Source: the human T2T-CHM13v2.0 reference genome, Homo sapiens
Length of the DNA: 64,000 nucleotides
Reading direction: 5' to 3' (one strand)
NCBI RefSeq assembly: GCF_009914755.1
Contig: NC_060925.1
Shown here: positions 12,001-43,524 of the stretch, piece after piece
Numbering within the stretch: position 1 is the first letter of the stretch
How the letters are laid out: each line of letters starts with the position of its first letter
Made by a program: the position numbers and the translations under genes
The notes under the pieces: model-generated
What the model saw: only the letters and a program-made list of their open reading frames with translations
Told to the model about the DNA's origin: nothing
Database searches by the model: none

Positions 12001-15000
12001 GTAGCCAGAGGACTGTCCTGAGCGAGACTCTCGGTGACCTAAGCCAGAAGAGTGACCGGAGCCAGACTCATATGGGCCACGGCTTGAAGACCACCCTGAG
12101 CCAGACCTATATGGGCCATAGCTGGAAGACTGCCCGGAACCAGACCCATGTCGGCCACGGCTAGGGCTAGGAGACTGGCCAGATCCAGACCCATGTTGGC
12201 CGTGGCCCAAAGACTGACGGGAGCCAGACCCATGCTGACCATAGCTGGAAGACGAACCTGAGCTAGATCCATGTTGTTCGCTCCTAGATGACTGTCCTGA
12301 CCTAGAGCCGTGTTGTTCGTAGCTGGAGGAGTGACCTGAGCCAGATCCATGCTGAGTGTAACCAGAGGACTGCCCTGAGCTAGACTTGTGACCAAAGCCA
12401 GAAGACTGGCCTGAGCCAGACCCATGTCGGCCACTGCTGGAAGACCGACCGGAGCCAGACCCATGTCGGCCATAGCTGGGAGACTGCCCTGACCCAGACC
12501 CACGCTGGCCGTGGCCTGGAGACTGGCCAGATCCAGAGCCATGTCGGCCGCGGCCCGAAGCGTGATGGGAGGCAGACTCATGCTGACCATAGCTGGAAGA
12601 TTGACCTGAGCTAGAGTCATGTTGGCCGGAGCTTGATGACTGCCCTGACGTAGATCCATGTCGTCCCTGGCTAGAGAAGTGACCTGAGGCAGAACCATGC
12701 TGACTATAGCCCTGTCCTGAGCCAGACTCGTGTTGCCCAAAACCAGAAGCCTGGCCTGAGCCAGACTCATAATGGCCACAGCTGGAAGAACAAGTTGTGC
12801 CAGACCCGTGTTGGCCGTGGCTGGAGGAGTGCCCTGAACTGGACCCATGTCGGACACGGCTAGGAGAGTGGCCAGATCCAGACCCTTGTCGGCCGTGGCC
12901 CGAAGATTGATGGGAGCCCGACCCATGCTGACCATAGCTGGAAGACAAACCTGAGCTAGATCCATGTTGTTCACTCCTAGATGACTGTCCTGACCTAGAG
13001 CCGTGTTTTCTGTAGCCGGAGGAGTGACTTGAGCCAGATCCATGCTGACTGTAACCAGAGGACTGCCCTGAGCCAGACTTGTGACCAAAGCCGGAAGACT
13101 GGCCTGAGACAGACCCATGTGGGCCATTGCTTGAAGACCAACCGGAGCCAGACCCATGTTGGCCGTAGCTGGAAGAGTGCCCAAAATCGGACCCATGTTG
13201 GCCGCGACTAGGAGACTGGCCAGATCCAGAGCCCTGTTGGCCATAGCGAGAAGACTGACTTGAGCCAGAGCCATGCTGACCGTGGCTGGAAGACTGACCT
13301 GAGGTAGCTCCATGTTGGCCACAGCTCGATGACTGTCCTGATGTAGAACCATGTTGCCCATGGGTAGAGGAATGACCTGAGCTAGATCCGTGTTGACCGT
13401 AGCCAGAGGACTGTCCTGAGCGAGACTCTTGGTGACCTAAGCCAGAAGAGTGACCGGAGCCAGACTCATATGGGCCACGGCTTGAAGACCTCCCTGAGCC
13501 ATACCCATGTGGGCCATAGCTGGAAGACTGCCTGGAACCAGACTCATGTCGGCCACGGCTAGGGCTAGGAGACTGGCCAGATCCAGACCCATGTCGGCTG
13601 TGTCCCAAAGATTGACGGGAGCCAGACCCATGCTGACCATAGCTGGAAGATGAACCTGCACTAGATCCTTGTCGTTCACCCCTAGATGACTGTCCTGACC
13701 TAGAGCCGTGTTGTCTGTGGCCGGAGGAGTGACCTGAGCCAGATCCATGCTGAGTGTAACCAGAGGAATGCCCTGAGCTAGACTCGTGGTGACCAAAGCC
13801 AGAAGAGTAGCCTGAACCAGACACATATGGGCCACTGCTGGAAGATCGACCAAAGCCAGTCCCATGTTGGCCGGAGCTGGGAGACTGCCCTGACCCAGAC
13901 CCACGCTGGTCGTGGCCTGGAGACTGGCCAGATCCAGAGCTGTGTTGGCCGCGGCCTGAAGAGTGACGGGAGGCAGACTCATGCTGACCATAGCTGGAAG
14001 ACTGACGTGAGCTGGAGCCATGTTGGCCAGAGCTTGATGCCTGCCCTGACGTAGATCCATGTCGTCCCTGGCTAGAGGAGTGACCTGAGCCAGAACCATG
14101 CTTACTATAGCCAGAGGACTGTCCTGAGCCAGACTCGTGTTGCCCAAAGCCAGAAGTCTGGCCTGAGCCAGACTCATAATGGCCACGGCTGTAAGAGTAA
14201 CTTGATCCAGACCCGTGTTGGCCGTGGCTGGAGGAGTGCCCCGAACCGGACCCATGTCGGACGTGGCTAGGAGACTGGCGAGATCCAGACCCTTGTCGGC
14301 CGTGGCCCAAAGACTGACGGGAACCAGACCCATGCTGACCATAGCTGGAAGACGAACCTGAGCTAGATCTTTGTCTTTCACCCCTAGATGACTGTCCTGA
14401 CCTAGAGCCGTGTTGTCCGTAGCCAGAGGAGTGACCTGAGCCAGATCCATGCTGACTGTAACCAGAGGACTGCCCTGAGCTAGACTTGTGTTGACTAAAG
14501 CCAGAAGACTGGCCTGAGCCAGACCCATGTGTGTCATTGCTGGAAGACTGTCCGGAGCCAGAGCCGTGTTGGCCATAGTTGGGAGACTGCCCTGACCCAG
14601 ACCCACATTGGCCGCGGCCTGAAGACTGGTGAGAGTCGGAGTTTTGCTCACCATAGCTGGAAGACTGACCTGAGTAGGAGTTATGTTGGCCAGAAAAGTC
14701 TCTTTGAAAACTCAGTCTTCTGGATATGGATTCAGTCCCAGGTTTAAGACTTCCTCTGACGTTTCTGGAATAGGAATCATTCTCTCCTGCACTCCAACTT
14801 GAATGACTAAAAGAGGATTCTTGCCGTTTGTTCTCCTCTTTTTCAGTTTCTTCTTGTTCCTCTTGGTGCTGGTGAGTGTCATCTCTCAGCTTTGACCCTG
14901 AAACTTGGCAGTAATCTTTGCCAATGATTTTATTATGAGCCTGAACCAGCTTGAATATCATCAGAAGATACTCAGTAAAATCCACTTTCTTGTTATGGTC

Positions 15001-15051
15001 TCGATCCAGACTTTGCAAGATGATATCCACAGTATCTGGATCGTTTGGATT
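1..15051 (-). CDS. HRNR: Hornerin exon 3 (second EF-hand, spacer, Gly/Ser/His/Gln-rich repeats); runs off the left edge of the window
   Basis: Acceptor CTTATACAG|AAT at 15051. Translation NPNDPDTVDIILQSLDRDHNKKVDFTEYLLMIFKLVQAHNKIIGKDYCQVSGSKLRDD... then GQHGSGSGQSS-type repeats. The same frame still reads ...GYGQ at bases 12-1. The ORF track lists no ORF in this frame, as expected if there is no stop before the edge. Confidence 0.97.
45..14680 (-). repeat. HRNR coding tandem array: seven 1410-bp units, three 708-bp units and two diverged 5' units, built from ~117-bp (39-aa) subunits
   Basis: The landmark gtgacctaagccagaagagtgacc recurs, with shadow-ORF stops at 45, 1455, 2865, 3573, 4983, 5691, 7101, 8511, 9219, 10629, 12039 and 13437 (spacings 1410, 1410, 708, 1410, 708, 1410, 1410, 708, 1410, 1410, 1398). 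Confidence 0.95.
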
Positions 15052-15419
15052 CTGTATAAGAGAAAGGTACAAAGGGTAGCTCTGTTAGTATGGACAATAC
15101 ATCTGGCTAACGAACTGAAGGAAAGATGTGAAAATGTAAATGTTTGGGTTATTTATATGGAACTCATTCACACAGTCCTTTAGGCTGCATTTCTGTATCC
15201 TGAGCAGAAAGAGAAAAAGGAATATGGAATGAATAATGTGGTGGGAAACAGCTAGAATAGGATGCAACTGGAAGATGAAAGGAAACAAGAGGGCTGATTA
15301 TTTTTGGTAAAGAATGGGTCAAATATGAATGATTAGCTAATTTATAAGTAATATGTTTTTATACCTACATTAATTATATCAACTTTATTTATCCAATTAA
15401 ATTAACTAGCTACTTAATT

Positions 15420-16270
15420 TACTCACTGAACAAAGATTTATTATTTTACTAGTTGCCTACCATTATGTCATATGAGAGTATAAAGAAGTGAACAAGTTTG
15501 CTTCCTGAAAAAAAATGGAATTTAAAGTTTAGTTGGCCAGATATACAAACTTAAAATTATAATTTATTGTGGTAAGGTTTCTACAAGAGTACATCAGAGA
15601 GGAAACATTGGGGGTCCTAGAAAGGTTAATGAGAGGAAATGATGCCTTTTGAAGGATGGATTAGGATTAGCCAAATGAAGAAGTAAGAAGAGAAAGAGAA
15701 GGGGAAAAGATTGTTCTAGGCAGAGGGAATTATATGAACAAAGGGCTAGAGGTGAGAGAAGTTATGGAGCATTCAAGGAACTGAAGGAAATTCAGGATTG
15801 CTAGATTTAGAGTTTGAAGAGTCAAGAAATGTGGATAGAGAGACAAATAGGGACTAGATTATGACTTTTAAGTTATGTTAAGGAACTTTGTACTTCATTT
15901 TAAGAGCAATTGGGAACTATTGAAGGATTTTTAGCTGAGGAGTGAAATGATTATATTTGCATCCAATGCTGAGAGTAGAAGTAGTAGGTGGCCTGAACCA
16001 GAGGACTAATAATAGTGATGAAGAGAAATGGGTTGTTTTGAGAGATTATTGATGAGTTAGATGGAGGTTAGAAGGTAGTGGTGTCTGCTGAGAGAGAGAC
16101 AATAAAAAATGACACCAGATTTTTGCTTTGGGCAAAAAGATGAAGGAAAAAGGTTAGTGGGGAAGATTATGAGATTCATAGCTGACACACTGAATATCTG
16201 ACATCTGATATCTGAATATCATATCTGAAATCCACAGAAATCCAAATTTAAGGAATTGAAACTCAGGAGT
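15420..16270 (-). mobile_element. Degraded L2 LINE in HRNR intron 2
   Basis: Resembles antisense L2 (ctcactgaacaaagatttatt..., aaggaactttgtacttcattttaagagcaattgggaactattgaagg). Confidence 0.6.
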
Positions 16271-16676
16271 CTGATATAAGGTCCCAAATATCTAAGCTAT
16301 CAAATCTAGACCTGACAGTTTTAAGGTGGTGGACACATTCTTTTGTGATTCAGGAGTAAATGCCAATTTCCTGAACTCAGAAATCTACTTCACAGTTTTT
16401 CTGAGGACTGTCTGGGTTTGTAGGAATTAGTCACTTAGATAGGGCATTATTTAACCTGTGGGTTTTGTTTGTTGTTTAGTAAGGTCACTTCCGTTAGTTA
16501 TGCTATGGAAACCATCACGGATCTGCTTTTGACCTTATCTCAAACTTTTACCAAACCCTGTTCTCTCTCACCAAGTAAGGACAATCCTCTAGGATGTTTG
16601 ACATATGTGACAAGAAGGTGGAAAGGGATAAAGAAGAAAATTCCTGCATAACTCCATCCTGGCGTGGAGTTCTTAC

Positions 16677-16814
16677 CTTCAGAATTTGATGAAACTCATT
16701 TTCCAGAAGTTCTTTCAGCTCTGCCTTGTTCAACGTATCATACTCCCCATGCTGGGTGGCATATTGGTAGAAAACATCGATGACAGTGATGACGCCTTGT
16801 AGGAGTTTAGGCAT
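16677..16814 (-). CDS. HRNR: Hornerin exon 2 coding part, 46 codons, first (S100-type) EF-hand
   Basis: MPKLLQGVITVIDVFYQYATQHGEYDTLNKAELKELLENEFHQILK followed by donor AAG|GTAAGA at 16677/16676. Acceptor TTTAG| at 16838, so the whole exon is 16677-16838. A 138-bp coding exon 2 is typical of S100-fused-type (SFTP) genes. Confidence 0.97.
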
Positions 16815-17698
16815 TTTTTTTTTGCAAGTTTGAGTAACCTAAAGGGAGGAAAAAGAGAGACCAACCCCTTACTATTCTTATTTCTTGTTTAAACACATAA
16901 ATAGTTCTAATTATTTATAATAATTGTTCAGAATTAGTCATGATTAAATTCATTCTGTTGTAATCAAGAACCAATTCAGAGTTGAATGACTTGTTCAAGC
17001 CATGTAGCAAGAGAGTGATGAAATTAGGAATATAATCCATAGGTCTTATTTCCATTCCTGAATGAATGTAGGAAAAATGACTTTCTGTTTTTGGCTTCCT
17101 GCCATTACCAGGGATAATATTAGCTTTGTTCTGGAGCTGTAGAAGTCCTGAGTGTTCCACTTCATCTGCTTCCTCTTTCTAGGTTCGAAGCATACTGTGG
17201 GCATAGGTCCATCATCTACATGACATGCCTTACTCAACCTAAGGAGCATCAATGGCTGAACTGAACTCTCAAGACTTCTAGGTCAGAGAAAATAGACAAT
17301 GTGAGCAAAGCCAACAAGCCTAGGTGATATGAAGCTAAGGGTAACTGCTATTAGATCCAGCTTCTGTTCTCATTCTCCAAGCAGGAAGTGACCCTCAGAC
17401 CTTATTACACAATAGAGAGGAAAAGCTCAGTTGTAAAGAAGGCAACCTGCCTGTGGATAATTAGAACCCCATGATATCCATGTTATAAGGGAAGCGACCT
17501 CAAAGAAAGGAGATAATATACATAGTCCTAGTCTTTGTTTCATTTTTCTTTTCAGTAAATTTAAACTTATACCAAAGTTCCCCAGAGTATACTAAAAAGA
17601 AGCCTTGTATCTAGTGCCTCTTTGCCTTAGAGCACATCCTGGACTTTCATAATTTATAGCCCTAAGTACCCTTGAGCGGAGTTGAACTGCTCACTTAC

Positions 17699-17752
17699 CT
17701 AGCTCACCAGAGGAACAAGTAGGGTAGAGACAGAAACAGCTTTCAGGGTGCT
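17699..17752 (-). other. HRNR: HRNR non-coding exon 1 (TSS approximate)
   Basis: Donor ...CTGGTGAGCTAG|GTAAGT at 17699, about 80 bp downstream of a TATA box; fits the three-exon SFTP layout. Confidence 0.85.
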
Positions 17753-17772
17753 GCGAGTTGGGCAGAGTGGCC

Positions 17773-17780
17773 TTTTTATA
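17773..17780 (-). promoter_or_regulatory. HRNR TATA box (TATAAAAA)
   Basis: CTATAAAAAGGCCACTCT on the minus strand, about 25-30 bp upstream of the inferred exon 1 start. Confidence 0.85.
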
Positions 17781-19629
17781 GAGGGAATAATGGTCCATCT
17801 TAGGGAGGAGTTGCTAATTTTGAGATGTCCTAATTTACTCCTAAACAAGCCCATCTCCACCTCTATCTCCACCTCCCAGGTGTTTACCTTCTTTCTGACT
17901 TCCTTACAGGTTCACCTAAGATTGCATTAGCAGTTCCCAAATCTGGGCTACTCTCAGCCCCACCTGCCAAAGGGTCAGGACACTGCAGAAAGGCCTGTTT
18001 TTGTATTCATCAAACTATCTAGCACAATATATTGACAACAAATTGTGTGGATTTTAATAGAAGTTGAATGGAGTGTGTGCAGGGACATCATGGCCCAAAT
18101 GTCAAAAAATCATGGAAATTGATGATTAAAAGGACTGTAAAGATCATCTAGTCAAACTCTCCCATTCTAAGCTAAATGTTCTTAAATGGTATTCCAGCCA
18201 AAGTGTCATCTTTGGTATTACCTTTTGAAATGGATAATGGCTCCAGGCCATCCTTTAACTCATTAAGTACCTCAACTTACCAGACCCCTTATTGGCCATT
18301 CATCACCATAGCTTTCATTTCAAACACCATATAACCTTAGGAAGAAATGCGTGCTTGTTAGCATGGTATCCATGGTTCCTCATGATCTGGGCTGTGGCTT
18401 TTTTCCAGCTCCATTTCTCCCCTCCATATTTCTCTTTGTACTCCAACAGTAATTAACTAGTAATATTTCAAACTTCCTCAATATACCATGGGATATGTTA
18501 TTTCATATTTTTTCTTAGAATGTCTTTCCTCATTGTCTGCCTAGTGAACTAATTATTCTTCAAAATCCAATTTAGGCTTCCCATAGAAAATCTTTCCTGA
18601 ATTACTCAAGAGGGAGTTGTAATTGTGTACCTTATTCATATTTATTGTTGTATCAATCATACTATATTGTAATCTTTAAAAATTGTTTTACTATACAATT
18701 ATTGTTTAATATAAAAATTAGAAAATATTGATAAGCAAATAAGATAAAATCAAAATACCTTTAAAGCCACTAGCCAAAAATAACTACTGTTAGTTATTTG
18801 TTGTATATCCTTGCCTTTCACAAACAAACACATTCACACACAGACACACACATTTGTCTATGGGCTTATTTCATTTCTAGGCTATGAGCTCCTTGAGAAT
18901 AAGGAATGGACATTATTTATCCTTATGTCATTTGGAGACCTAGTATACTGCTTGTCACATAACGGTCTCCAATAAATGTCAGTTTGAATTCATTTGAAAG
19001 AGAAGCAAGGATCAAGACTATAGTCCTCTGCATTGGCCAACTTCCATCTTTTCACAGGAGGACTAGGGTCTGCCCTCTCTCTTGCCATCTTTGCCTCAGA
19101 GGACATGATTTTACCTGAATATAAACGGAATCTTAGCATTGAGAATCAATGAGTGGCTTTCTGCTTTTTTCTGAGGCCCTCGCTCTGCATTTCTTCCATT
19201 GTGAACATATAACACAAATTTCACTGAAGGTGTGTGAAGTTACATGGACTTAAAACTTGTGCAATATGGTCATCAGGATTTGAGAAGGTGTGGTAGCAAC
19301 TGTTGGCAAGTGATAAATTACATGATTCCAAATTCAACTATTGTTAGGCTATGTGTTTTCTTTTAAGAATTGCCCAGAGGGCTGCAGAGTCAGTATCCAT
19401 TCTGTAGCCGTGTTTCCTCTGGACATCTGATTGGGCCAGGTTTTCATGCTTCATCAGAACAATGACTTTTTAAAGGTGTGGCTGAGACTGTGGGAGTAAA
19501 GGGGGGTGGAATTTGCTGAGTGAAGACTGATTTCCTGCAGGAACCAGCTGTTGTCACGAAGGGAGGAGAGGGTTGTGAGAGAAGACTATTCCAGGTGAAC
19601 GTGCTCTTGGGGCTAGTGTTCTCCTGAAA

Positions 19630-25993: not shown

Positions 25994-27556
25994 GACTTGT
26001 AGTATATTTGAAGTCAAGTAGTGTGATGCCTCCAGCTTTCTTCTTTTTGCTCAAGATTGCTTTGGCTATTTGGGGTCTTTTGTGGTTTCATACAAATTTT
26101 AGGAATGCTTTTTTCTATGTCTATGAAGGATGTCATTGGTATTTTCATAGGGATTGCATTGAATCTATAGATTTCTTGGAGTAGTATGGACATTTTAACA
26201 ATATTAATTCTTCTAATCCATGAGCATGGGATATTTTCCCATTATTTGTCTCCTCTTCAGTTTCTTTCATCAGTGTTTTATAGTTTTTATTGTAGAGAAC
26301 TTTCACTTCTTTGGTTAAATTAATTCCTAGACATTTAGGGTTTTTTTTGGTATTATTATAAATGGGATTATAAGATGGATTTCTTGGTTTCTTTTTCAGA
26401 TTGCTTGCTGCTGGTGTATATAAATACCACTGAATTTTCATGTCGATTTTGTATCCTGCAACTTTACTGAATTTGTTTATCAGTTCTAAGAATTTTTTGG
26501 TAGAGTCTTTAAGTTTTCCTAAATACAAGATCATGTTGTCTGCAAACAAGGATAAGTTGATTTCTTCCTTTCCAGTTTGGATGCCCTCTGTTTTTTTCTC
26601 CTACCTAATTGCTCTGGCTAGGACTTCCAGTACTATGTTGAATAGGAATTGTGAAAGTGGTCATCCTTGTTTTGTTCCAGAGCTTAGAGGAAAGCCTTTA
26701 TTTTTCCCCATTCATTATGATGTTAGCTGTGGATTTGTCATATATGGCCTTTATTGTTTCTTCTATACCCAGTTATTGAGAGTTTTTATCATGAAGCAGT
26801 GTTGAATTTTATCGAGTACTTTTTTTAGCATCTATTGAAATGATCATGGCTCTTGTTCTTGATTCTGTTCATGTGATGTATCACTTTTATTGATTTGCAT
26901 ATGTTGAAGCATATGCATAGGAAGCTTTTATTCCTAGGGTGAACCCCACTTAATCATGATAAATAATCTTTTTAATGTGTTGTTAAATTTGGTTTGCTAG
27001 TATTTTGTTCAGGATTTTTACATCTATGTTCATCAGGCATATTGGCCTGTAGTTTTCTTTTTTTGTTGTGTTTCTGTCTGGTTTGGGTATCAGAGTAATG
27101 CTGGCCTCATAGAATGAGTTAGAGAGAATTCCTTCCTCTTCAATTTTTGGGAACAGTTTTAGAAGAATTGATGTTTATACTTCTTGAAAAGTGTGGTTGA
27201 ATTTGGCAGTGAAGCTGTCTGGTCCTGGACTTTTCTTTGTTGAGAAATTTGTTATTACTGATTGAATCTCATTAATCATTATTGGTCTGTTCAAATTTTC
27301 TTTTTTTTTTCCTGATTCAATATTGGTAGGTTGTATGTTTCCGGGAATTTATCTGTTTCCTCTAGGTTTTCCAATTTGTTGGCATACAGTTGTTCATTAT
27401 GATCTCTAATAATCCTTTGTATGTATCTGTGGAATCAGTAATCAGTTGTAATGTCTTTTTTTCATCCTTGATTTTAACTGGGGTCTTTTCTTAGTCTAAC
27501 TAATGGCTTCTTGATTTTGTTTATCTTTCCAAAAAACCAAATTATCATTTCATTGA

Positions 27557-27733
27557 TTATATATATATATAGTTATATATAGTTATATATAGTTATATAT
27601 ATAGTTATATATATAGTTATATATAGTTATATATAGTTATATATATAGTTATATATAGTTATATATATATAGTTATATATATAGTTATATATATAGTTAT
27701 ATATATAGTTATATATATAGTTATATATATAGT
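27557..27733. repeat. (TATATATAGT)n AT-rich tandem repeat
   Basis: Direct reading: repeated agttatatat(at) units. Confidence 0.95.
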
Positions 27734-30196
27734 TTCAATGTCATTTTTCATTGATTATGTATATTATATATGCTCAATGTCATTTTTTCATTGATTATAT
27801 ATATAGTCTCAATGCCATTTCTTTCTGCTCTAATTTTTATTATTTCTTTTTTTCTACTAATTTTGGGTTTGGTTTGTTCTTGCTTTTCTAGTTTCTTGAA
27901 GTGCCTCATTAGATTGTTTATTTGGAGTCTTTCTACTTTTTTTGATGTAGGCCTTTATTGCTGTGACTTTACCTCTTAGAACTACTTTTGCCATATTCTC
28001 TAGATTTTCATACATTGTTTATTCATTTTTTCCTCAACAAATTTCTTATTTTCTTCATTGACCTATTCATTGTTGAGGAGCATGTTGTTTAATTTCCATG
28101 ATTTTGTGCAATTTCTATTGTTCCTTCTATTATTAATTTCTAGTTTTAATCCATTGTTGGAAAGATATTTGATATGATTTTGATTTTTAAAAATTTGTAA
28201 AGACTTGTTTTGTTCTTTGAAAGTTTAGTTGAATTTGTCAGTGAAGCCATCTGTCCTGGACTTTTCTTTGCTGGGAAACTTTTTATTACTGATTTAATCT
28301 CATTACTCATTAATTGACTGTTCAGGTTTTCTGTCTTCCTGATTCAATTTTGGTAAGTTGTATGTGTCCAGGAACTTACATATTTCGTCTAGGTTTTCTA
28401 GTTTGTTAGTGTATAGTTCATAATAGTCTCTGGTGAACATTTGTAATTTTGTGATATTAGTTGTAATGTCTCCTTTTTCATTTCTGATTTTACTTGGGTC
28501 TTTTTTCTTTTTTTCCTTGGTTAGTCTAGCAAGTGTTTTATTGATTTTGCTTATCTTTTCAAAAAACAACTTTTCATTTCATTGATCCTTTGTAACATTG
28601 TTTTAGTCTATATTTCATTTAGTTGTGCTCTGATCTTTACTATTTCTTTCTTTCTGCTGATTTGGGGTTTGGTTTGTTCTTACTTTTTAGTTCCCTGAGG
28701 TGCATTTTAGGATTATTTGAGATCTTTCTGTTTTTTTTTTTTTTGATGTAAGTGTTTATTGCTGTGAACTTATTTCTTATCACTGCTTTTGCTGTATCCC
28801 ACAGATCTTGGTATGTTTTGTTTCACTTTTCATTTGTTTGAAGAAATTTTTTATCTCATGTTAATTTCTTTCATGACCCAGTGGTCATTCAGGAGCATGT
28901 TGTTCAGTTTCCATGTATTTGTACAGTTTCCCAAGTTCCTCTTGTTATTGATTTCTAGTTTTATTCCTTTGTAGTCTGAAAATATACTTGATATGATTTT
29001 AGTTTTTAAAAATTTATTAAGACTTGTTTTTTATCCTAACATGATCCATCCTGGAGAATGTTTCTCGTGCTGATGAGAAGAATGTGTATTCTGTAGCTAT
29101 TGGATGGAATGTTCTGTAAATGTCTTTTAGGTCCATTTGATCTAGAGTGTAGCTTAACTCTGATGTTTATTGACTTTCTGTCTGCATGATCTGTCCATTG
29201 CTGAAGGTGGCATGTTTAAGCTCCCCACTATATTGTATTGCAGCGAATCTCCCTTTTAAATGTATTAATATTTGACTTATATATTTGGATGCTCTGGTGT
29301 TGGGTGCACATATATTTAAAATTGTTATATTGTTTGGTTGTATTGACTCCTTTATATCATTATGTAATGGTGTTTTTTGTCTTTTTTCAAAATCATTCGT
29401 TTTTTATTTTTTATTTTATTTTTTCACACATTTATTTCAGCAAAACATCATCCTTTGTATTAAGTTAACATTAATTTGGATTTTAGAGTTTATATGGTTT
29501 TGTTTTTATCTTTTATGTAAGTTAATTTTGGTTCTTCAGTTGTGTAAAAATTACAAGGGAAATGAATTTATATATAACTAGTTAAAACTGACACATACAG
29601 GATACACATTACAATAAAAACAATTTAAGTCAATCCTGGAAATGTCTGCAAAAATATCTTCATTGGAAGGGTTAACATAATAATTATATTTGAGAAGCAC
29701 CACTTTTTACTATTATCAGTAACCTTCTGCTTAAAAATTCACCAAAATACCCTATTGCATATATTCTTTATATTCAGTCCAAACAGCCCTTCCAATCCAC
29801 ACCCAAAGTCATCTTAGTTTTTTCTTTCCTTTCATCTACTTGCCCTCTGCTGAAGCCCCTGGATCTTCTCCCCTGTGCCCTCAGGAACTCCTACTCCTCC
29901 ATAAAGACCCAGCTCAAGTGCTACTTCCTCTGTGAAGTCTTTCTGGAATCCCCACAGGATTTAATGCTCCCACAATGTATCACTCAGGGCCTTGCAGGAA
30001 ACACACCACACATTCCAATGGGTAGTTGAAGGACTTTACTAGAAAGGCATTGTGACTTCTGAGAAACAGATACAGGTTGTGGAAGAGGCTGAGGACACAC
30101 TCAGTATCCCACCTCACACTTTTCCTTTCCTTTTATCTGCTACCAGGGTCCCCATTGGCTGAACCTAACTAGAAGCCAAAGGGCAAAGAAATCCTG

Positions 30197-32692: not shown

Positions 32693-34150
32693 AATTAAAA
32701 CCTCTTTTATCTAAGCATAGCTACTCCTGCTCTCTTTTGATTTCCATTTGCATAAAGTACCTTTTTCCATCTCCTCACTTTCAGTCTGTGCATATCTTTA
32801 TAGGTGAACTAAGTTTCTTATAGACAGCCTATAGTTTGGTCATTTAAAAAAATCCATTCAGCCACTCTATGTCATTTAATTTTAGAAATTAATTCATTTA
32901 TATTAAAAGTTATTAATGATAGGTAAGGGTTTACTATTGGCATTTTGTTACTTATTTTCTGGTTGTTTGGCAGAGTTTTCTCTCTCTTCTTGTTTACCTT
33001 TGTAGTTAAGTGGTTTTTTCCCATAGTATGTTTTGATTTTGTGCTATTTATTTGTAGTGTATTTATGATAGGTTTTTGCTTTTTGATTACCATAAGGCCT
33101 ACAAAAACATCTTATGTTATTACAGGTTATCTTAAGCTGATAATGACTTAACTTCATAGCAAAGAAAAGAAAAATAACAACAATAACAAAAACAACAATA
33201 AAAAACCCTCTGCAGAGGGTTTAACACTATTCTTTAACACTATTTCTTTAACACTATTTAACACTATTTTTTAACACTGTTTCCTCCCCATTTTTTGACT
33301 TTTTGATGTTTCAATTTACATTTTTATATTGCCTATCTCTTAACCAATTGTTTTAGTTATTGTTTTAATAAATTTTTCTTTTAGTCTTTATTCTTAAAAT
33401 ATAAGTGACTGACTGACTTCAATTACAGTTGAAGTAAGTAGACAGTCTGAGTCCACTCATGGACACGTGTGATCCAGCACAGGAGAAAATCAAGGATCCT
33501 GCCATGGGCAGTCAAGACATTTAGAGTATTCTGAATTTGTCTGTTTTTTTTTTTTTTTCTTTTAACAGTGAGTTTAATTACTTTAGATGTTTTCTTGTAC
33601 ATTAGCATCCATTTCTTTCAGATTGAAGAACTCCCTTTAGCATTTCCTGTAAGACAGGTCTGCTGTTAAGGAATTCTCTCAGCTTTGTTTGTCTGGAAAT
33701 TCTTTATCTCTTCTTCATGTTTGAAGGCTAACTTCGCTGGGTACAGAATTTTTGTTTGGCAATTCCTTTTTTCCTTTGTCACTTTGAATATAGCATCCTG
33801 TTCTCTCCCGGTCTGTAGAGTTTCTGCTGAGAATTCTGCTGAAAATTGTATTGGGGCTTCACTGAATATGATATATTTCTTTTCTTTTGCTGCTTTGAGT
33901 ATTCTTGCTTTGTCTTTAATTTTTGGTAATTTAATTATGATATGTCTTGGGGATTTCCTCTTTGGGTTGAATTTGATTAGTGACTTCTGAGCATCTTGTA
34001 CTTGGATGGCATCATCTTTCTCCAGATTTTGGAAACTTTCAGCCATTATTTCCTTAAATATGCTTTCTAGGCCCTTCTCTTTTTTGTCTCCTGGGAATTC
34101 TTGTTATATGGAGGTTAGTTCACTTGATGATGTCCCATAATTATTATAGG
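32693..34150 (-). mobile_element. Continuation of the old L1 (ORF2 start and ORF1)
   Basis: ORF1-like 33666-34046 (SPRHIIIKL..KARILKAAKEK..ILYPAKLAF); colinear with the L1 interrupted at 29400. Confidence 0.8.
33430..33520 (+). pseudogene. Inverted filaggrin-like fragment inserted in L1
   Basis: Plus strand reads SRQSESTHGHV*SSTGENQGSCHGQSRH; L1 flanks caattacagt | ttagagtattctg. Confidence 0.7.
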
Positions 34151-34216
34151 CCACTGATGGACTGTAACTAATTCATGGTCTTCTACCTCTGCTAGGTCCA
34201 GACTGATAATGAATAT

Positions 34217-34694
34217 TGACAGAGACTTTCCCCTTGACCTAACTATAACTAGTCAGGCTCTTCTGAACCCAACTAGAGCCCATTCTTGGGAATGTCCACA
34301 AGAGTCCAGTTTTAGCAAGAATCCTGTTAAATCAGTTTAGACAGAATCCTCCACCCTTAATATCTGATCACCTTCAGTATCTGACCAAATTCTTCCTCTC
34401 TCACCATCTCCCAGGTAATATGGGATCACTGTGGCCTGTCTTCAGTAAGAATCTTGTTAGGTCAGCTTATCAAGAATTATCTTACCCTTGCAGTAGTTTT
34501 TAAACTACTGACCCTCCACATTCTTCTTCTTGGCTATAAATTTCCTCTTTTCTTTGTTGCATTAGGAATTGAGCTCCATCTCTCTCCCCACTACAAAAAT
34601 CCCATTGCAGCAGTCCCTACACTTTTCAAGGTAGCCCTGAATAACACCTATCTTACCAGTTTAACAAGTGTTAGTGTATTCTTTTGCTTTAATA
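34217..34694 (+). mobile_element. MER31-type ERV1 solo LTR
   Basis: tgacagagactttccccttgacc...tagtcaggctc...agttttagcaagaatcctg...ggctataaatt...ctttaata. Confidence 0.75.
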
Positions 34695-34787
34695 GTATCA
34701 AATGATTGTTTATGGCTTATTCCTGAGTATCCAAGATTAAATCTTTGCCTTTCTGTCTTACCTGTTGATTCAGACCCTGAATGATCA

Positions 34788-35075
<288 letters not shown>

Positions 35076-36621
35076 TCAATGGACTGAAATCAAGGTTGAA
35101 TGGTCTATTGTTTTTCAGACTATACACAGCTGTATCAGCACTTCCATAGCTGCCATGTTTACAACTATAACCTGATCCTTGCACCATTACTATCACTCTG
35201 TATATGATTAGACCCAAATTCACCTTGGGTTTGACTTGTCTGGCTTCTGAGTGTGTTATCTATCTCCTGCTTGATTATGACTATGACTTGCTTGTCACTG
35301 GAGGGAACTTCCTCTGTCCATTGTTTTACTGATCATCACTTCTCATGACTAGACCCAAACTGTCCATGAATTTATATCTGGCTAGGAAAAGACATGGATT
35401 GTCTAGAGCTGTCTCATATCTATTCATGGGCCATCTATCTGCCTTTTTCTAGTGTTGGATCCTGATTGTTCATATATAGATTCAGACTAACCATTAGTGG
35501 ATGTTTGTCTGTGATAAGACCGAGCGTTTAGAGTTTATAGAAATATCTCTTATCAACCAACTGTCCATGGGCTGATTCTATCTCTGTGTCTCCAGATTGT
35601 ATTTTATGGCCACTGACCTAATTGTAACTTCATCCTTGAAGTCTGCTTATTTTGGGTCCAGAATATATTAATAGTGCTCATCTGTGAATTGACCCTGAAG
35701 GTCTAGTGCTGCCTTTTGATTGTCTGTAGTGAACCAATTTCTTTTCCTTATGTTGAACACAGATTCTTCTTGGAAGACTAGATTGCCTATGAGTAGATGT
35801 CCATCCTTGATGAGTTTCTGGCTTACCTTTTGACTGTCCATGGCTAGAACTATCTCTTTTTTTTTTTTCTGGATCCAGACTGCCCATGCCTATATACAAC
35901 TTGACCACAGGAGAAGGGTAACTGTCTATCCCAGCCTCCTAACTATGCTTCATTACTGGAAAGAGTAAATTTAGATCTCTGCTGTTTATGCTGGATGTAG
36001 ACTGTACAGGTGATGATTATCTATGAAAAGATCATGAATGTCCAGAGCTCTCTCCTTATTGACTGTAGCTGGATCCATGTCTTCTTATATTGGGTCCAGA
36101 TTTTCCATGTGTAGACCCAGACTGTCCATAAATCGATGTCTGTCCTGAGCATCTAATGCTATCTTATGATTATCTGTGGTGAGAGCCTTGTTTTCCTATT
36201 TTATCAGATTTCTGTTGTTTGTGGCCATACCCAGGCTATTCATGGGTTCATGCTGACTGTCTGAGTTTTCTGATTGTCTTTCAATATCATTAGATTGACT
36301 ATACCTGGGCACCTTGGTCCATTTGTACTGATTCCAGACTCTGTAGGTGATGATTGGTTATGAGATGACTTGGCACTCTCTCCTGACTGTCCATTGAATT
36401 CATGCAAACTGTCAATGACTGGTTATTTGGCCCTGCTGAGATACTGACTATCTGGAGCTTCTTCCTGTTTGACCATGACTAGGGTTTTGTTTTCCTCTTT
36501 TGCTGGATCGGTATTGCCTATGACCATATTTAGACTGGTCATGGGTAGATACTGACTGTTCTTTTGAATCTCTTGATTGTCCCTCACTGTCACTGGACTA
36601 ACTATAGTTAGAACTCCTGGC

Positions 36622-38160
<1,539 letters not shown>

Positions 38161-38930
38161 TTCCATCTGTGTAAAGTATCCTTCCTTCATTTTTCTTTAG
38201 CACATTGTTCACATTGTTTTCTTTGCATGCCTAGCACTCATTCTACATATAGCATGTAGTGTACTGAATTACAGTTGACATTTTATGGGATTGTCTCATA
38301 TGATAAGTGATCTTTGTCAGGCGAGGCCAGTGATTACAGCTTATTCATGTTAGTATCCGTGTCATGTGTCAAAGTACCTACTCAGCAGTAGGACTCAGTT
38401 ACATGAATCAATGGATGAATCATTCCATTAGAATTCAACCATCATGAATTCAGAAAATAGAGAATCAGAGGTTTGGTTTCCTGAAATCAGCTTCTGTCCT
38501 ACTGATATTGATCTAACTGATCTTACTGATCCTGTCTAAATTATCGTATATCAAAAAGGATGCAGGATATAAGCATCCTCTGCATCTAAAGATTCAACAA
38601 GATGTATGACTCATCCAGTCCACAGTAAGAGCTGCATGATATTTAGATAAAGCCCTCTGAAAATAGTGGAGACAATCAATAATGCTGTCTTTCTTTCAGC
38701 CTACCATGTCTTAGGGCTGTACAATGCAGCAATGCAAAGAGTACTGAGTAATCTCAGAGAAAGCACATTTCAATCTTCAATTTCTTTCTCTATTAGAGAA
38801 TCTTATGGTTACAGGGGACCTAAAATAACTTTTTAAGAAATCCAAGCATCCAGTAGTGTTTTGCAGAGTACGTCCCTAGATTTCCACTTTGGTTAACAAT
38901 AAGTAGGAATAGTTGGATGGGTTCTCTCTT

Positions 38931-39070
38931 ACCCAGTTCACCAACATACATGTAAGGATGTCGATTGAAGGAATGGCAGGATACTAAAGGTCAGGAGAGT
39001 GGCCTTTTATACCAGCTAAAGGTCCCTGCTCAGGAGAGGCCCCCTTTTGTGAATGGTCTGATTCATCACA
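38931..39070 (-). promoter_or_regulatory. Orphan SFTP-like promoter and non-coding exon 1
   Basis: Minus strand: TGAATCA (39065-39059), TATAAAAGGCCACTCT (TATA 39011-39005), and TTGGTGAACTGG|GTAAGAG donor at 38933; parallels the HRNR promoter/exon 1 in this window. Confidence 0.7.
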
Positions 39071-39759
39071 TTCTGATCCACCCATATGTCCACTTTTCTT
39101 TCTCTACTGTTTATTTCCTAACTTTTTCAAGTACTAGTTTCTGCTTATATTAGCAGCTTCCAGATTTAGGTTGACATTTGTCCTGGCTAGCATAAATTTT
39201 ACAGAAGGATCTCTTTGGAAATAATAGCCTCCTTGTGTACATCTGTCATTATTTATACTTTGTTTTATTTCCCATATTGACCTAACAAAGGCTTGAGGCA
39301 TATATGCTGAAAAGCAATGATCCTTGAGCTGAGGTAGTAGAATATGCATGTGTAAGAGGGATCTGAAATCCAAAATAGGTGAAGAGTTTTGGAGAGTTCC
39401 CAGCTAGGATTTAATCTCACCTAGTTTGTTACTGTGAATTCTATATGTGAGTATTATAGAAATATGCCTGGGAGTTAATGCACTACTAACTGTGATCTTT
39501 GATATATTGTTATAAATGGAAATGAGAGAACACTGGAGGTTGGCAGATTTAGTTGTATTATCCCAAATTGAAAAGTGAGGTCTATTTTTCTCTTTTTGTC
39601 ATGGTTATTAACCTGGAATATCAGACATATGCTGCACACTCTGCCTTTGTGAACCTTGAGACAGTATGTTTACTTCTATAGTAGCACCACTAACTCTGTG
39701 CAAGAGACTCTCATAGAGATTCTCACTAACTCTGTGCAGGAGATTCTCAACCCTGGACT

Positions 39760-40620: not shown

Positions 40621-42109
40621 CCTGTCGGTTACCCATCCCTATCACCTGGCCCCCATCTCTATGCCAATAGATATGGTTAATAGAGATTTTGCAAGCAATA
40701 ATCTCTAGTGGTTTGGGACCTTTAGGGAAGGCATAGATGGTCCTCCTCTTGGAGCCACAATGTACATTAGCCTATTAAAGGCTCTGACTCTGAGAAGCTC
40801 TGTAGAACCCAGGACCCTGTCTGTAACCAGGGTTTCCCAAATATTTCTAATCAGGGAACTCTTCTTTTGAAGAACATCTATTATTAATCAAGGAATTCAG
40901 TAAGGGAACTGTTGTTCTGTATCAAATACTCTCTGAAGCATTAAAAAATGATAGACAAAAAGCCATGTTTTTGCTTCATTGTCAGCATTAGCATCTTTAT
41001 CTCTCTTTATTTCTTCTCTTTTCCAGAGGATTTTATCACTTTATCACTCCAGCCACCTAGCTGAAAATGTATGATATGGGTAATGCCCTCAGGGGACTGG
41101 TACCCTGGTTTCTGTCCTTACAATGGATAGGCTTCCAAATCTTACTGATTCGTGGGTTGCTAACACAGCTTGCAGGGTGGTTAGCTATTATGTTGAAAGG
41201 CAATTTCTTTGAATGAATGTAGATCACCATTTTAATCAGTGACTTGAATGACAATGTGAATTGATGGCAAATATGTATAAGATTCAGGATGCATGAAGAA
41301 GATTTTATAGGCTGGGATGAAATGGTGGGAAAATCTAGAAGAAATAATTTTAACAATTGTATAAAAAAGTATCCTGAGCTGCGAACCTCTATATAACTAG
41401 AATAATCAGTGAAGTACAGTTCCAGAAGTCCTTCAAGTGTGGACTTGTGTCAGCGGTTATGCGCTTTTATGTTGAAGCCATAGATTTCTCAATCAATGCT
41501 GATCTTGTGGTGGTGAAGACTGGTTCAGTGTCTCCATCAGCATTTTAATACTTTTATTGGTGTGACCTACTTTTACAATTTCCTATAGTTTTCCAGGAAT
41601 TCATCTCTATTTTAGGATTGCCCAAACAACTTTGGGCAAAATCCTCCAAGGCTGGATCAGACATGTTAAATGCCATTCCCAGTAGTGGTAAGCATATCAG
41701 TGAAATTATGTGGAACACATACTTTTTGAGTTTTGACTGCTTCAGGGTGAATTTTTTTCTTCTCTGGCATACTTTTTAAGGGGTTAGGAGGTAGTCTTTG
41801 CTCTCTCCCTTTCTTCAAAATTTTTGATCTACATACCCTGGAATCAAACTCTTTTCCCCACTTTTTACTGTTTCTTTGTTGGAACCCATTAGTACTCATG
41901 CAAAGTGTACTCCTGTCAGTTAAAATAACTATCACTGAATTATGCATCATTCATTTGTAGTGTGGGTATATTTCAACTAATATTTGTATTCTTCTTATGC
42001 AATTTTTATTTTAAAAAAAAACCTTTTAAGGTAAGTATATATGATTGGGTTGACTTAAATAACACAATGGTTTTATGCTTCTTGAGTAGAACAGGTCACA
42101 AACTAGCCT

Positions 42110-42350
42110 GCAACTATGTCAGCTTCAAAGGTTTTGGAGTCTGGCTCACTTGAGTTTGCCTCCTGGCGCTTCCATTTACTGTTGTATGACCTTGGGTAAA
42201 TTACTTAGCCTTTCTGAGTCTGTTTCCTCATCATCAAAGTAAGGATGATAATGCCTATTTTAAAGGGCTGTTGAAGTATTAAGTAAGCTAATTATGTCAA
42301 TTATACAGCACATTGTGTAACATTTTAGTTACATTAAAACTCAGCTATTA
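42110..42350. mobile_element. MIR SINE
   Basis: tgaccttgggtaaattacttagcctttctgagtctgtttcctcatc. Confidence 0.75.
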
Positions 42351-43524
42351 TATAATTATCGCAGTTTAGTTGTTATTCTAATATTGGCTATATTAATTGT
42401 GTGAACTTTTGTACTTGTATGTATTTCCAGTAAGAGAGGATCTGGGAATGTAAATGTCTTTTTCTTTTTCCAGGATTTTTCCTCTTAGGATTTATTTCCC
42501 TGGAGACCTCATGAAGAATGATGTGGGTTCTATAGGGTACAGTGTGATCTGGGTCCTGCCTAATCTCCTTTCTAAACTTCAGAAAATCATGGTAGGTTTT
42601 CATGTCTTATAGATAAAGCAGAACTTCAGAGAAATTGTGACTTAAGAGTAGAGTTCCTTCAAATATTGTCTTTTGCCTTTTGATTTCCTCTGTATTTTTA
42701 CACCTGATGAATGAGAACCTTATTGGAAAAATGTAGCAAAAGTGCCAGGAACATGGTAAGAAGAAAGTAGTTAGGAGAATGGGATAGGGATGGGGGCAAA
42801 TAGTGCTACTAAATGGTTAAAAAAATGCATTTATCCCTTTCTCTTTTTGTACCCAGCTGACTTCAGGTGTACTATGTTCTGTGCTCTCTCTCCCTCAAAT
42901 GAAATATAGTCTTCTATCTAATGTCACATTGTAAATATTAATATTTAATGTGACTTTGTTTGGGAGGCTTAGTTAGGGACTTAGCCAGGATTTTGGCTAG
43001 CTTGAGCCTAGGGCTTGGAGCCTCCTCTGTAGCTTGAACACTAATGTTCCTTTTTTTTCTGGCTACACTCTCTGGCAATACTCTCTGGTTCCTTTCTTTC
43101 TGGCTACACTCTCTTCCTTTTCTATCAAGACTTTCAGATGTCAAGGTTCCCAAGCTCAATTCCTAGATGCCTTTTCTTCTCTTAAGCTTTCTCACCACGC
43201 TGGACTGTTCTCTTTCACTCCTAAAATTATTTCATGATCTTGCTGGGTTAGTCTTTACTTTGTGCTCTAAACTTTCTGGCATCTTGAGGTCTTCAGCATT
43301 CAGGCACTGAAGCCTAATTTTGACATGTGGAACTGAAAACAGAATTAGAAAGTAATTATCAAAGAGTCCTCAAATGGTTAGAGGATGTATAGGAGAGTGA
43401 AGCATGGGGAAAAATACAAGTCAGCCTTTGGAGGGGATGGACAGTAGGACAGGGAGAGTAGGGAAGAAGCATAAGGTATTCTACTTCTGACTGGCTGTCT
43501 GCATCCTAATCTGTTTTTTTCTGA

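What the first reader, a model, noticed from the sequence alone, without database searches (positions are those of the whole stretch)
38931..39070. Intact-looking orphan SFTP promoter and exon 1 that outlived its gene
Seen: TATAAAAGGCCACTCT here versus TATAAAAAGGCCACTCT at HRNR; exon end TGGTGAACTGG|GTAAG versus TGGTGAGCTAG|GTAAG; TATA-to-donor distance 78 versus 81 bp; an upstream ATGAATCAGACCAT element that matches my recollection of the AP-1 site of the FLG promoter. These motifs look better preserved than the heavily decayed coding remnant. Inference: it may still fire in differentiating keratinocytes as a lncRNA promoter, as an enhancer, or as an alternative first exon spliced ~22 kb to HRNR exon 2 (acceptor 16838), which would yield normal hornerin because exon 1 is non-coding.
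Basis: partly seen in the sequence, partly recalled or inferred. Interest (0 to 1): 0.75.

Follow-up and report, generated by a model that had tools for sequence, protein, structure and literature searches.

The report
Fossil promoter of dead filaggrin-like gene
This is the leftover promoter and first exon of an ancient, dead sister copy of the human filaggrin gene, lying between hornerin and filaggrin; its key motifs survive, but the sequence shows decay and nothing here shows that it still works.

Summary
All quoted strings sit on the minus strand where stated, with TATA-to-exon-end spacing of 78 nt here and 81 nt at HRNR.

The origin is confirmed and refined. The nearest relative is FLG, not HRNR. 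A genome-wide search finds only the FLG promoter, and homology runs 38718-39481 (62.6% over 807 nt, E 2.5e-48). A tree groups orphan with FLG at 97% bootstrap.

Downstream on the same strand lie decayed filaggrin-type repeats (36609-35348) and the conserved SFTP C-terminal motif (35176-35134). No S100 exons were found. This is a roughly 4.3-kb relic of a whole FLG-sister gene. It is absent from the supplied annotation and was not found in print.

"Intact-looking" is only partly right.
- Retained: the TATA box, the TGAATCA heptamer and the GT donor.
- Decayed: identity to FLG is fairly flat, with only a mild peak near the heptamer.
- Decayed: exon 1 is the segment where the orphan has fallen behind the live genes. 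It carries two ATGs that no live paralogue has, and donor position -2 is changed.

Activity could not be tested here. The best reading is a largely neutral fossil, with about a 25% chance of residual regulatory activity.

The parts
38718..39481 (-). Whole block homologous to the FLG promoter, exon 1 and the first ~215 nt of intron 1
   Evidence: blastn against FLG window-coordinates 119519-120284: 62.6% over 807 nt, E 2.5e-48. Core 38878-39218: 67% over 359 nt, E 1.5e-21. The only other genomic match is the FLG promoter.
39075..39087 (-). ATATGGGTGGATC, a 13-nt exact run shared with the FLG promoter; GGTGGA is shared by all four FLG-group promoters
   Evidence: Any factor assignment would rest on recall only.
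39053..39066 (-). ATGAATCAGACCAT, holding the AP-1-like heptamer TGAATCA (39065-39059)
   Evidence: 14 of 14 identical to FLG at the aligned position. FLG2 has TGAATCA, RPTN has TGATTCA, HRNR has TAAATTA.
38996..39011 (-). TATA box with flank, TATAAAAGGCCACTCT
38933..38981 (-). Relic of non-coding exon 1. The start is inferred by alignment to the annotated FLG start, 30 nt after the TATA start. Holds two ATGs, at 38951 and 38947.
   Evidence: spacing, ATGs. (orphan 54-63% identical to the live genes here, against 65-75% among the live genes).
38927..38932 (-). Splice donor GTAAGA. The exon side reads TGG, whereas all four live paralogues read AG at -2/-1.
37160..37476 (.). Alu-type insertion between exon 1 and the coding relic (named Alu from its length, copy number and my recall; no repeat library was run)
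   Evidence: Matches several other copies in the window at 69-78%. Masked in the hub's table (37157-37471).
35348..36609 (-). Decayed filaggrin-type repeat region (relic of exon 3): four partial units with in-frame stops
   Evidence: nhmmer with a profile of 11 FLG 972-nt units, E 5.9e-16, 4.5e-13, 8.6e-8 and 5.4e-7. tblastn with FLG exon 3 gives 46-50% identity with stops. Internal self-similarity 58% at an offset of about 320 nt. The only other genome hits are FLG repeats.
35134..35197 (-). Relic of the conserved SFTP C-terminal motif (reads ...KHGSYGSAD...)
   Evidence: 86% over 44 nt to the FLG 3' coding end, E 8.7e-6. FLG reads RHGSYGSADYDYG and FLG2 reads KHGSYGPAEYDYG. 74.6% to the FLG2 3' end.
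39584..39659 (-). Collinear upstream piece homologous to FLG upstream (window-coordinates 120425-120501)
   Evidence: 70.5% over 78 nt, E 4.8e-4.
41231..41308 (-). Collinear upstream piece homologous to FLG upstream (window-coordinates 122264-122342)
   Evidence: 73% over about 80 nt, E 4.6e-7 to 8e-6.
17699..17780 (-).

Best explanation
The element is the fossil promoter, non-coding exon 1 and intron start of an eighth human SFTP gene. That gene was a sister copy of FLG, lay between HRNR and FLG in the same orientation, and is now dead.

Shown:
- Homology to the FLG promoter and exon 1.
- A sister relation to FLG.
- A collinear downstream relic of filaggrin-type repeats and of the SFTP C-terminal motif.
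- No detectable S100 exons.
- In-frame stops.

Inferred:
- A whole-gene tandem duplication took place long ago. The distance is about 0.5 substitutions per site. By recalled neutral rates this is on the order of the early placental or therian radiation.
- The copy lived for some time and was then inactivated, probably with physical loss of the S100 exons.
- The relic has since drifted largely neutrally.

The TATA box, the TGAATCA heptamer and the GT donor survive because the gene was alive for part of its history, because they are short A/T-rich motifs without CpG (my own reasoning, no call tested it), and partly by chance. The element has no dedicated present function beyond whatever incidental factor binding such motifs allow.

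My confidence in the origin part is at least 0.95. My confidence in the "no present function" part is about 0.6.
For: Origin:
- The genome-wide search returns only FLG.
- The homology block is 807 nt long, E 2.5e-48.
- The shuffle test gives z 66.9.
- The tree ((orphan,FLG),(HRNR,FLG2)) has 97% of 200 bootstraps with four sequences, and 72% with RPTN added.

Whole-gene relic:
- Filaggrin-type repeats at 36609-35348.
- The C-terminal motif at 35176-35134.
- Both lie on the same strand and in the right order.

Dead:
- Stops in every frame of the relic.
- No S100 signal in 4 of 4 kinds of search over 18001-64000: tblastn with HRNR exon 2/3 (best E about 1); tblastn with FLG exon 2 (no hit); six-frame hmmsearch (best domain E 2.9); nhmmer (best E 0.11 for exon 2, and the exon 3 hits fall in the repeat relic).

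Drift in the promoter:
- The orphan branch is 0.32 against 0.195 substitutions per site for FLG.
- Identity to FLG is 70/69/63/61% across upstream flank, TGAATCA-to-TATA, exon 1 and intron.
- A 60-nt sliding profile shows only a mild peak of 42-45 of 60 at 39160-39041, against 27-42 elsewhere.
- In the exon 1 segment the live genes are 65-75% alike, but the orphan is only 54-63% like them. Polarised changes are 15 on the orphan branch and 5 on the FLG branch (p 0.04). For core plus exon 1 they are 24 against 10 (p 0.024).
- The orphan has two ATGs in exon 1 and G instead of A at donor -2, against 0 of 4 live paralogues.
- An exact run of 14 or more is expected in 33% of 397-column alignments at 66% identity.
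- HRNR, a live gene, lacks the heptamer, so the heptamer is not diagnostic of a live promoter.
Against: - All 20 positions of TGAATCA, TATAAAA and GGTAAG are unchanged. Under uniform neutral decay along the whole orphan branch (0.32) the chance is 0.0017. It is 0.04 if only half the branch was neutral. So some past or present constraint is needed. The motifs were picked after the fact, though.
- The best-preserved 120 nt (39160-39041) include the heptamer.
- In the intron segment the orphan has changed less than FLG, 4 against 14, so the orphan is not uniformly fast.
- No expression, chromatin or cross-species data could be consulted, so inactivity is inferred, not shown.
- The relative-rate counts rest on outgroups that are only 54-59% identical.
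Confidence: 0.6

Rival explanations
1. The relic promoter still fires or still binds AP-1 in differentiating keratinocytes. It would act as a promoter of an unannotated minus-strand lncRNA or eRNA, or as an enhancer within the HRNR-FLG interval.
For: - The TATA box, the TGAATCA heptamer (identical to FLG and FLG2), the 78-nt spacing and a GTAAGA donor are all retained.
- Joint survival of these motifs is improbable under uniform neutral decay (0.0017-0.04).
- The orphan keeps homology to the whole stretch that corresponds to the FLG -343/+25 fragment. Passages of PMC9477237 describe that fragment as active in reporter assays and dependent on an AP1 site.
- The best-preserved stretch surrounds the heptamer.
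Against: - The hub's RefSeq table lists no minus-strand transcript or functional element here.
- Exon 1 and the initiator region are the most decayed part relative to the live genes.
- The orphan branch is 1.6 times the FLG branch.
- Late death of the gene explains the motif survival equally well.
- No data on activity were available.
Confidence: 0.25
2. The relic serves as an alternative first exon of HRNR, spliced from donor 38932 over about 22 kb to the exon 2 acceptor at 16838.
For: - The donor and acceptor are both present on the same strand.
- SFTP exon 1 is non-coding, and the HRNR ATG lies in exon 2.
Against: - No such transcript appears in the supplied annotation.
- HRNR has its own TATA promoter and exon 1 only about 860 nt from exon 2.
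- The orphan exon 1 has two upstream ATGs. One opens a 16-codon out-of-frame ORF that overruns the HRNR start. The other lies in frame 13 codons upstream. The product or its translation would therefore not be normal.
- The donor -2 position is weakened.
Confidence: 0.03
3. The element never belonged to a complete gene. Only fragments of FLG (its 5' end and some repeats) were copied here by partial duplication or patchy repair.
For: - No S100 exons were found.
- Only about 2.1 kb lies between the intron homology and the repeats, against about 11 kb in FLG.
- At least one FLG-like patch elsewhere (33441-33519) is clearly an inserted fragment inside another repeat.
Against: - Promoter, repeats and C-terminal motif lie in the correct order, on one strand, within 4.3 kb.
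- Collinear upstream pieces reach 2.3 kb beyond the promoter.
- Much of FLG intron 1 (about 113.0-117.4 kb in window coordinates) matches L1-type repeats of the window. HRNR intron 1 is about 860 nt and FLG2 intron 1 about 1 kb. So the ancestral gene was probably compact, and a single deletion of about 1-2 kb would remove the S100 exons.
Confidence: 0.07
4. The resemblance to SFTP promoters is chance.
For: Plain blastn against HRNR gives only a 13-nt match at E 7.3.
Against:: E down to 2.5e-48 against FLG, and 0 of 500 shuffles reach the observed score for FLG, FLG2 or HRNR.
Confidence: 0.01

Closest known systems
Human FLG (profilaggrin) proximal promoter and non-coding exon 1
   Same: - The TATA box, the TGAATCA heptamer within an identical 14-mer, and a second identical 13-mer are shared.
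- TATA-to-donor spacing is 78 nt against 80 nt, and both have a GTAAGA donor.
- Identity is 66% over 397 aligned columns, and homology extends over 807 nt.
- The two are sister branches in the promoter tree.
   Different: - The orphan branch is 1.6 times longer.
- Exon 1 has two ATGs and donor -2 is G.
- The gene behind it is dead: stops, no S100 exons, and only about 1.3 kb of repeats against more than 10 kb.
Human HRNR promoter and exon 1
   Same: The TATA-box flank AAAAGGCCACTCT is shared, as are the exon end TGGTGA.CT.G|GTAAG and the spacing of 78 against 81 nt. Similarity is above chance, z 9.2.
   Different: - Identity is only 56%.
- HRNR lacks the heptamer, reading TAAATTA.
- HRNR groups with FLG2, not with the orphan.
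- The coding relic gave no hit to the HRNR repeats in the window-wide blastn at E 1e-3 or better.
Extra SFTP genes between FLG and HRNR in marsupials (opossum HRNR-like 1-3)
   Same: They occupy the same intergenic position between FLG and HRNR (passages of PMC10791643). This shows that additional SFTP genes have existed in this interval in therian mammals.
   Different: - Those are annotated as HRNR-like and apparently intact. The human relic is FLG-like and dead.
- Orthology was not tested, because no non-human mammalian sequence was available to these tools.
Pseudogene relics that keep a recognisable promoter (general class)
   Same: Core promoter motifs and a splice donor persist beside a decayed coding region.
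   Different: Whether this one is transcribed is unknown. Comparison with the class rests on general knowledge, not on a call.

Membership tests
SFTP (S100 fused-type protein) gene | TATA promoter followed by a short non-coding exon 1, with conserved spacing and a GT donor | tested here: met
   Alignment with FLG, FLG2 and HRNR. Spacing is 78 nt against 80, 81 and 81. Shuffle z is 9-67.
SFTP (S100 fused-type protein) gene | Exon 2 with the start codon and first EF-hand; start of exon 3 with the second EF-hand (the S100 domain) | tested here: not met
   No signal over 18001-64000 in tblastn, six-frame hmmsearch with profiles of 4 and 3 human paralogues (best E 2.9) or nhmmer (best E 0.11).
SFTP (S100 fused-type protein) gene | Long tandem-repeat domain in exon 3 | tested here: met
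   A decayed filaggrin-type repeat relic at 36609-35348, nhmmer E down to 5.9e-16. Only about 1.3 kb survives, with stops. Tandem Repeats Finder reports no array.
SFTP (S100 fused-type protein) gene | Conserved short C-terminal motif | tested here: met
   KHGSYGSAD at 35176-35134, against FLG RHGSYGSADYDYG and FLG2 KHGSYGPAEYDYG. The existence of such a motif in most SFTPs is stated in a passage of PMC11039687.
SFTP (S100 fused-type protein) gene | Open reading frame (a functional gene) | tested here: not met
   Stops in all frames of the relic (115 stops in one frame of 33000-38932). It is therefore a pseudogene relic, not a gene.
SFTP (S100 fused-type protein) gene | Position and orientation within the SFTP cluster of the epidermal differentiation complex | tested here: met
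   It lies on the minus strand between HRNR and FLG, like both neighbours (hub annotation).
Active RNA polymerase II promoter | Transcription start, open chromatin and promoter histone marks in some tissue | not testable with these tools
   No CAGE, RNA-seq or chromatin data were available. The hub's table lists no transcript or functional element here.
Active RNA polymerase II promoter | Evolutionary constraint on the core motifs | tested here: inconclusive
   - For: the 20 motif positions are unchanged (p 0.0017-0.04 under uniform decay, chosen after the fact).
- Against: identity is fairly flat, with a mild peak at 39160-39041, and the core plus exon 1 carries an excess of orphan-branch changes, 24 against 10.
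- No cross-species data were available.
AP-1-dependent FLG-type promoter | AP-1 site upstream of the TATA box that binds JUN/FOS | tested here: inconclusive
   - The heptamer TGAATCA is present at the position aligned to FLG, about 54 nt upstream of the TATA box.
- That this heptamer is the published FLG AP-1 site is recalled (Jang et al. 1996, seen only as a reference entry).
- PMC9477237 passages place an AP1 site at -118/-106 in their own numbering, without giving the sequence in the text.
- Binding is not testable here.

The most novel reading that the evidence does not exclude
The relic is the human remnant of the extra SFTP genes that marsupials still keep between FLG and HRNR, so the therian ancestor had more filaggrin-group genes than the seven counted in humans. 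Its surviving AP-1/TATA module would still be used in differentiating keratinocytes as a pseudogene-derived promoter or enhancer inside the atopic-dermatitis-associated HRNR-FLG interval (that disease association is my recall; I read no passage on it).
Probability: 0.2. Interest if true: 0.55.

Novelty: new member of a known kind. Interest (0 to 1): 0.35.

Why it matters
- It adds an eighth, dead member to the human SFTP cluster and shows that FLG once had a tandem sister. This bears on how the filaggrin/hornerin group arose and was pruned in mammals.
- The relic is not in the supplied RefSeq table. Passages of a 2017 primate filaggrin study say that no filaggrin pseudogene with repeats was listed in NCBI Gene.
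- If the fossil promoter were still active, it would be a candidate regulatory element in a region tied to skin-barrier disease. The present evidence does not show that.
- For practical annotation, it explains a stretch of unique, unmasked, non-coding DNA with promoter-like motifs.

Tried and rejected
1. Plain blastn of the orphan against the window showed only a 13-nt match to HRNR. I would have called this chance, had the genome-wide search not found FLG.
2. The weak S100-like tblastn hits at 36419-36378 and 34398-34372 (E 1.3 and 3.1) were rejected. They are in the wrong order relative to the repeats and were not supported by the profiles.
It was replaced by profiles I built from the human paralogues.
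4. The apparent inverted collinearity of 26-37 kb with FLG intron 1 was rejected as paralogy. The same FLG stretches match L1-type copies elsewhere in the window in both orientations.
5. The 1.3-kb match 41351-42549 to FLG upstream was not counted as part of the relic. Part of it is an interspersed repeat with at least 38 other genomic matches listed.
6. Recent gene conversion with FLG was rejected. The longest exact runs are only 14 and 13 nt.
7. Tandem Repeats Finder found no array in the coding relic.
8. Literature:
   - The search for filaggrin, FLG, SFTP, hornerin or HRNR "pseudogene" phrases found 1 paper, which reports none.
   - The searches on FLG-AS1/HRNR/intergenic and on HRNR/FLG/enhancer/H3K27ac brought 8 rows (7 distinct works). 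I read passages of only one of them, and they gave no coordinates bearing on this site. The rest I saw only as listings.
10. Comparison with the opossum HRNR-like genes was left out, because their sequences are not among those that may be handed to the tools.

Full report
**The observation**

All features lie on the minus strand.
- TATAAAAGGCCACTCT occupies 39011-38996. The putative exon ends ...TGGTGAACTGG at 38933 and is followed by GTAAGA.
- The HRNR counterpart has TATAAAAAGGCCACTCT from 17780, and its exon ends at 17699 before GTAAGT.
- From TATA start to last exon base is 78 nt in the orphan. It is 81 in HRNR, 80 in FLG, 81 in FLG2 and 75 in RPTN.
- The upstream element ATGAATCAGACCAT lies at 39066-39053.
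- The HRNR exon 2 acceptor is at 16838 and its ATG at 16814.

**Is it more than chance?**

The quoted motifs alone are not significant. A blastn of the orphan with 1.5 kb on each side against the window gave only a 13-nt exact match to HRNR at E 7.3.

The picture changed with a search of the window's own genome. A 241-nt query returned two places, itself and chr1 positions that are window coordinates 119686-119914. That is the promoter and exon 1 of FLG, whose annotated start is 119789 (69% identity, E 6e-11). A 1201-nt query again found only FLG (E 3.9e-18).

Sensitive blastn against 66.5 kb spanning FLG and FLG2 extends the homology to 38718-39481 against 119519-120284 (62.6% over 807 nt, E 2.5e-48). 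Small collinear pieces lie further upstream, at 39584-39659 and 41231-41308.

In a shuffle test on 420 nt, the local score against FLG, FLG2 and HRNR had z 66.9, 13.2 and 9.2, with 0 of 500 shuffles reaching it in each case. RPTN had z 0.5, with 171 of 500 reaching it.

The FLG promoter contains ATGAATCAGACCAT letter for letter.

**Which paralogue?**

In a five-way alignment the orphan is:
- 66% identical to FLG (262 of 397 columns)
- 56% to HRNR
- 53.5% to FLG2
- 44% to RPTN

Maximum likelihood gives ((orphan,FLG),(HRNR,FLG2)). Support is 97% of 200 bootstraps with four sequences and 72% with RPTN included. Branch lengths are 0.32 for the orphan and 0.195 for FLG. The element is a sister of the FLG promoter, not an HRNR-like one.

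**What lies around it**

Downstream on the same strand, a profile of eleven FLG 972-nt units finds four partial units between 36609 and 35348 (E 5.9e-16 to 5.4e-7).
- At protein level they are 46-50% identical to filaggrin repeats and carry stops.
- They are 58% similar to each other at an offset of about 320 nt.
- Elsewhere in the genome they hit only FLG repeats.

Just beyond them, 35176-35134 matches the 3' coding end of FLG (86% over 44 nt, E 8.7e-6). It reads KHGSYGSAD, against RHGSYGSADYDYG in FLG and KHGSYGPAEYDYG in FLG2. This is the short C-terminal motif that a passage of PMC11039687 says is conserved in most SFTPs.

Nothing resembling the S100 exons was found anywhere in 18001-64000.
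- tblastn with HRNR exon 2 and the start of exon 3 gave a best E of about 1.
- tblastn with FLG exon 2 gave no hit.
- Six-frame hmmsearch with profiles of the human paralogues gave a best domain E of 2.9.
- nhmmer gave a best E of 0.11 for exon 2, and its exon 3 hits fell in the repeat relic.

The 2.1 kb between the intron homology (38718) and the repeats (36609) holds one Alu-type insertion (37160-37476). The rest is mostly unique DNA with no recognisable relative.

The whole therefore looks like a 4.3-kb relic of a complete FLG-sister gene: promoter, exon 1, start of intron 1, repeats and C-terminal end. The S100 part is most likely deleted. That last step is an inference. It rests on the S100 exons being the best-conserved part of live SFTP genes, while less conserved parts of the relic are still detectable.

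**Is the promoter better preserved than it should be?**

For:
- TGAATCA, TATAAAA and GGTAAG are all unchanged, 20 positions in all.
- With the orphan branch length and a uniform rate, the chance of this is 0.0017 if the whole branch was neutral. It is 0.04 if half of it was.
- The best-preserved 120 nt (39160-39041, 42-45 of 60 identical) include the heptamer.

Against:
- Identity to FLG is nearly flat: 70% in the upstream flank, 69% from the heptamer to the TATA box, 63% from the TATA box to the exon end, and 61% in the intron.
- An exact run of 14 is expected in 33% of such alignments.
- In the exon 1 segment the three live genes are 65-75% identical to each other, while the orphan is only 54-63% identical to them.
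- Changes polarised with HRNR and FLG2 as outgroups fall 15 on the orphan branch and 5 on the FLG branch (p 0.04). For core plus exon 1 they fall 24 against 10 (p 0.024).
- The orphan exon 1 has gained two ATGs, at 38951 and 38947, and its donor has G rather than A at -2. Each is a state seen in 0 of 4 live paralogues.
- HRNR, which is alive, has lost the heptamer and reads TAAATTA.

One result cuts the other way. In the intron segment FLG has changed more than the orphan, 14 against 4.

My reading is that the motifs needed constraint for part of the time since the duplication. A gene that lived for a while and then died supplies that constraint. The sequence gives no positive sign of present constraint, and these data cannot exclude it.

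**The proposed functions**

No expression, chromatin or conservation track can be consulted with these tools. The supplied annotation lists no minus-strand transcript or functional element here. The only overlapping gene is the plus-strand lncRNA CCDST, in whose intron the relic lies.

The idea of an alternative first exon for HRNR is weakened on sequence grounds. If joined to exon 2, the first ATG opens a 16-codon out-of-frame reading frame that overruns the HRNR start. The second lies in frame 13 codons upstream, with no stop between. The outcome would not simply be normal hornerin.

Passages of PMC9477237 report that a -343/+25 FLG fragment drives a reporter and depends on an AP1 site at -118/-106 in their numbering. 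The text does not print the site's sequence. The equation of TGAATCA with the published site therefore rests on my recollection of Jang et al. 1996, which I saw only as a reference entry.

**Age and relatives**

The orphan-FLG distance is about 0.52 substitutions per site. By recalled neutral rates for the human lineage, this suggests a duplication on the order of 100 million years ago or more. This is inference, not a computed date.

Passages of PMC10791643 state two things:
- Human, cattle and elephant share a conserved SFTP arrangement.
- The opossum has three extra HRNR-like genes between FLG and HRNR.

Additional genes in this very interval are therefore documented in therians. Orthology with the human relic could not be tested.

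**Is it known?**

PMC11039687 counts seven human SFTP genes (passage). PMC5225520 states that no filaggrin pseudogene with repeats was found in NCBI Gene (passage). My phrase search for filaggrin, FLG, SFTP, hornerin or HRNR pseudogene found only that paper.

I could not see GENCODE or the pseudogene catalogues. "Not described" therefore holds only for these searches and the supplied table.

**Verdict**

The origin is confirmed and sharpened: it is a FLG sister, part of a whole-gene relic. "Intact-looking" is partly right. Present activity is untested, and the sequence leans mildly against it. It is a new member of a known kind, a pseudogene relic with a fossil promoter, of modest interest.

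Noticed in passing
window 33441-33519 (+): An ~80-nt filaggrin-repeat-like piece (nhmmer E 2.4e-11; 80.5% to one FLG unit) lies in the orientation opposite to the relic. It sits inside an interspersed, L1-type repeat. In other genomic copies of that repeat the two flanks are adjacent, so the piece looks like a captured or templated insertion.
   Followed up: partly
window 19292-19609 against FLG upstream (window coordinates 123663-123962): A stretch 1.6-1.9 kb upstream of HRNR exon 1 matches a stretch about 4 kb upstream of FLG (65.6% over 323 nt, E 2e-23). It could be a shared old repeat or a conserved upstream element of the two genes.
   Followed up: no
window 14961-17780 (-): The supplied T2T RefSeq hornerin model starts at 16814, which is the ATG. 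It has no exon 1, and its last listed exon runs through what the sequence shows as intron 2 (donor after 16677, exon 3 reading NPNDPD from 15051). The sequence itself shows a canonical TATA box at 17780, an exon 1 ending at 17699 and an exon 2 acceptor at 16838.
   Followed up: partly
window 41351-42549 against FLG upstream (window coordinates 126858-128120): A 1.3-kb match (61.8%, E 2.9e-70) lies roughly collinear with the relic's upstream region and overlaps the CCDST exon at 42474-42591. Part of it is an interspersed repeat with many genomic copies. Whether the rest is paralogy is open.
   Followed up: partly
window 26086-29293, 32695-34070, 36648-36832: Old L1-type fragments match an L1-type stretch in FLG intron 1, and L1 copies at 53.6-62.3 kb of the window, in both orientations. 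They mimic an inverted collinear paralogy with FLG intron 1.
   Followed up: partly
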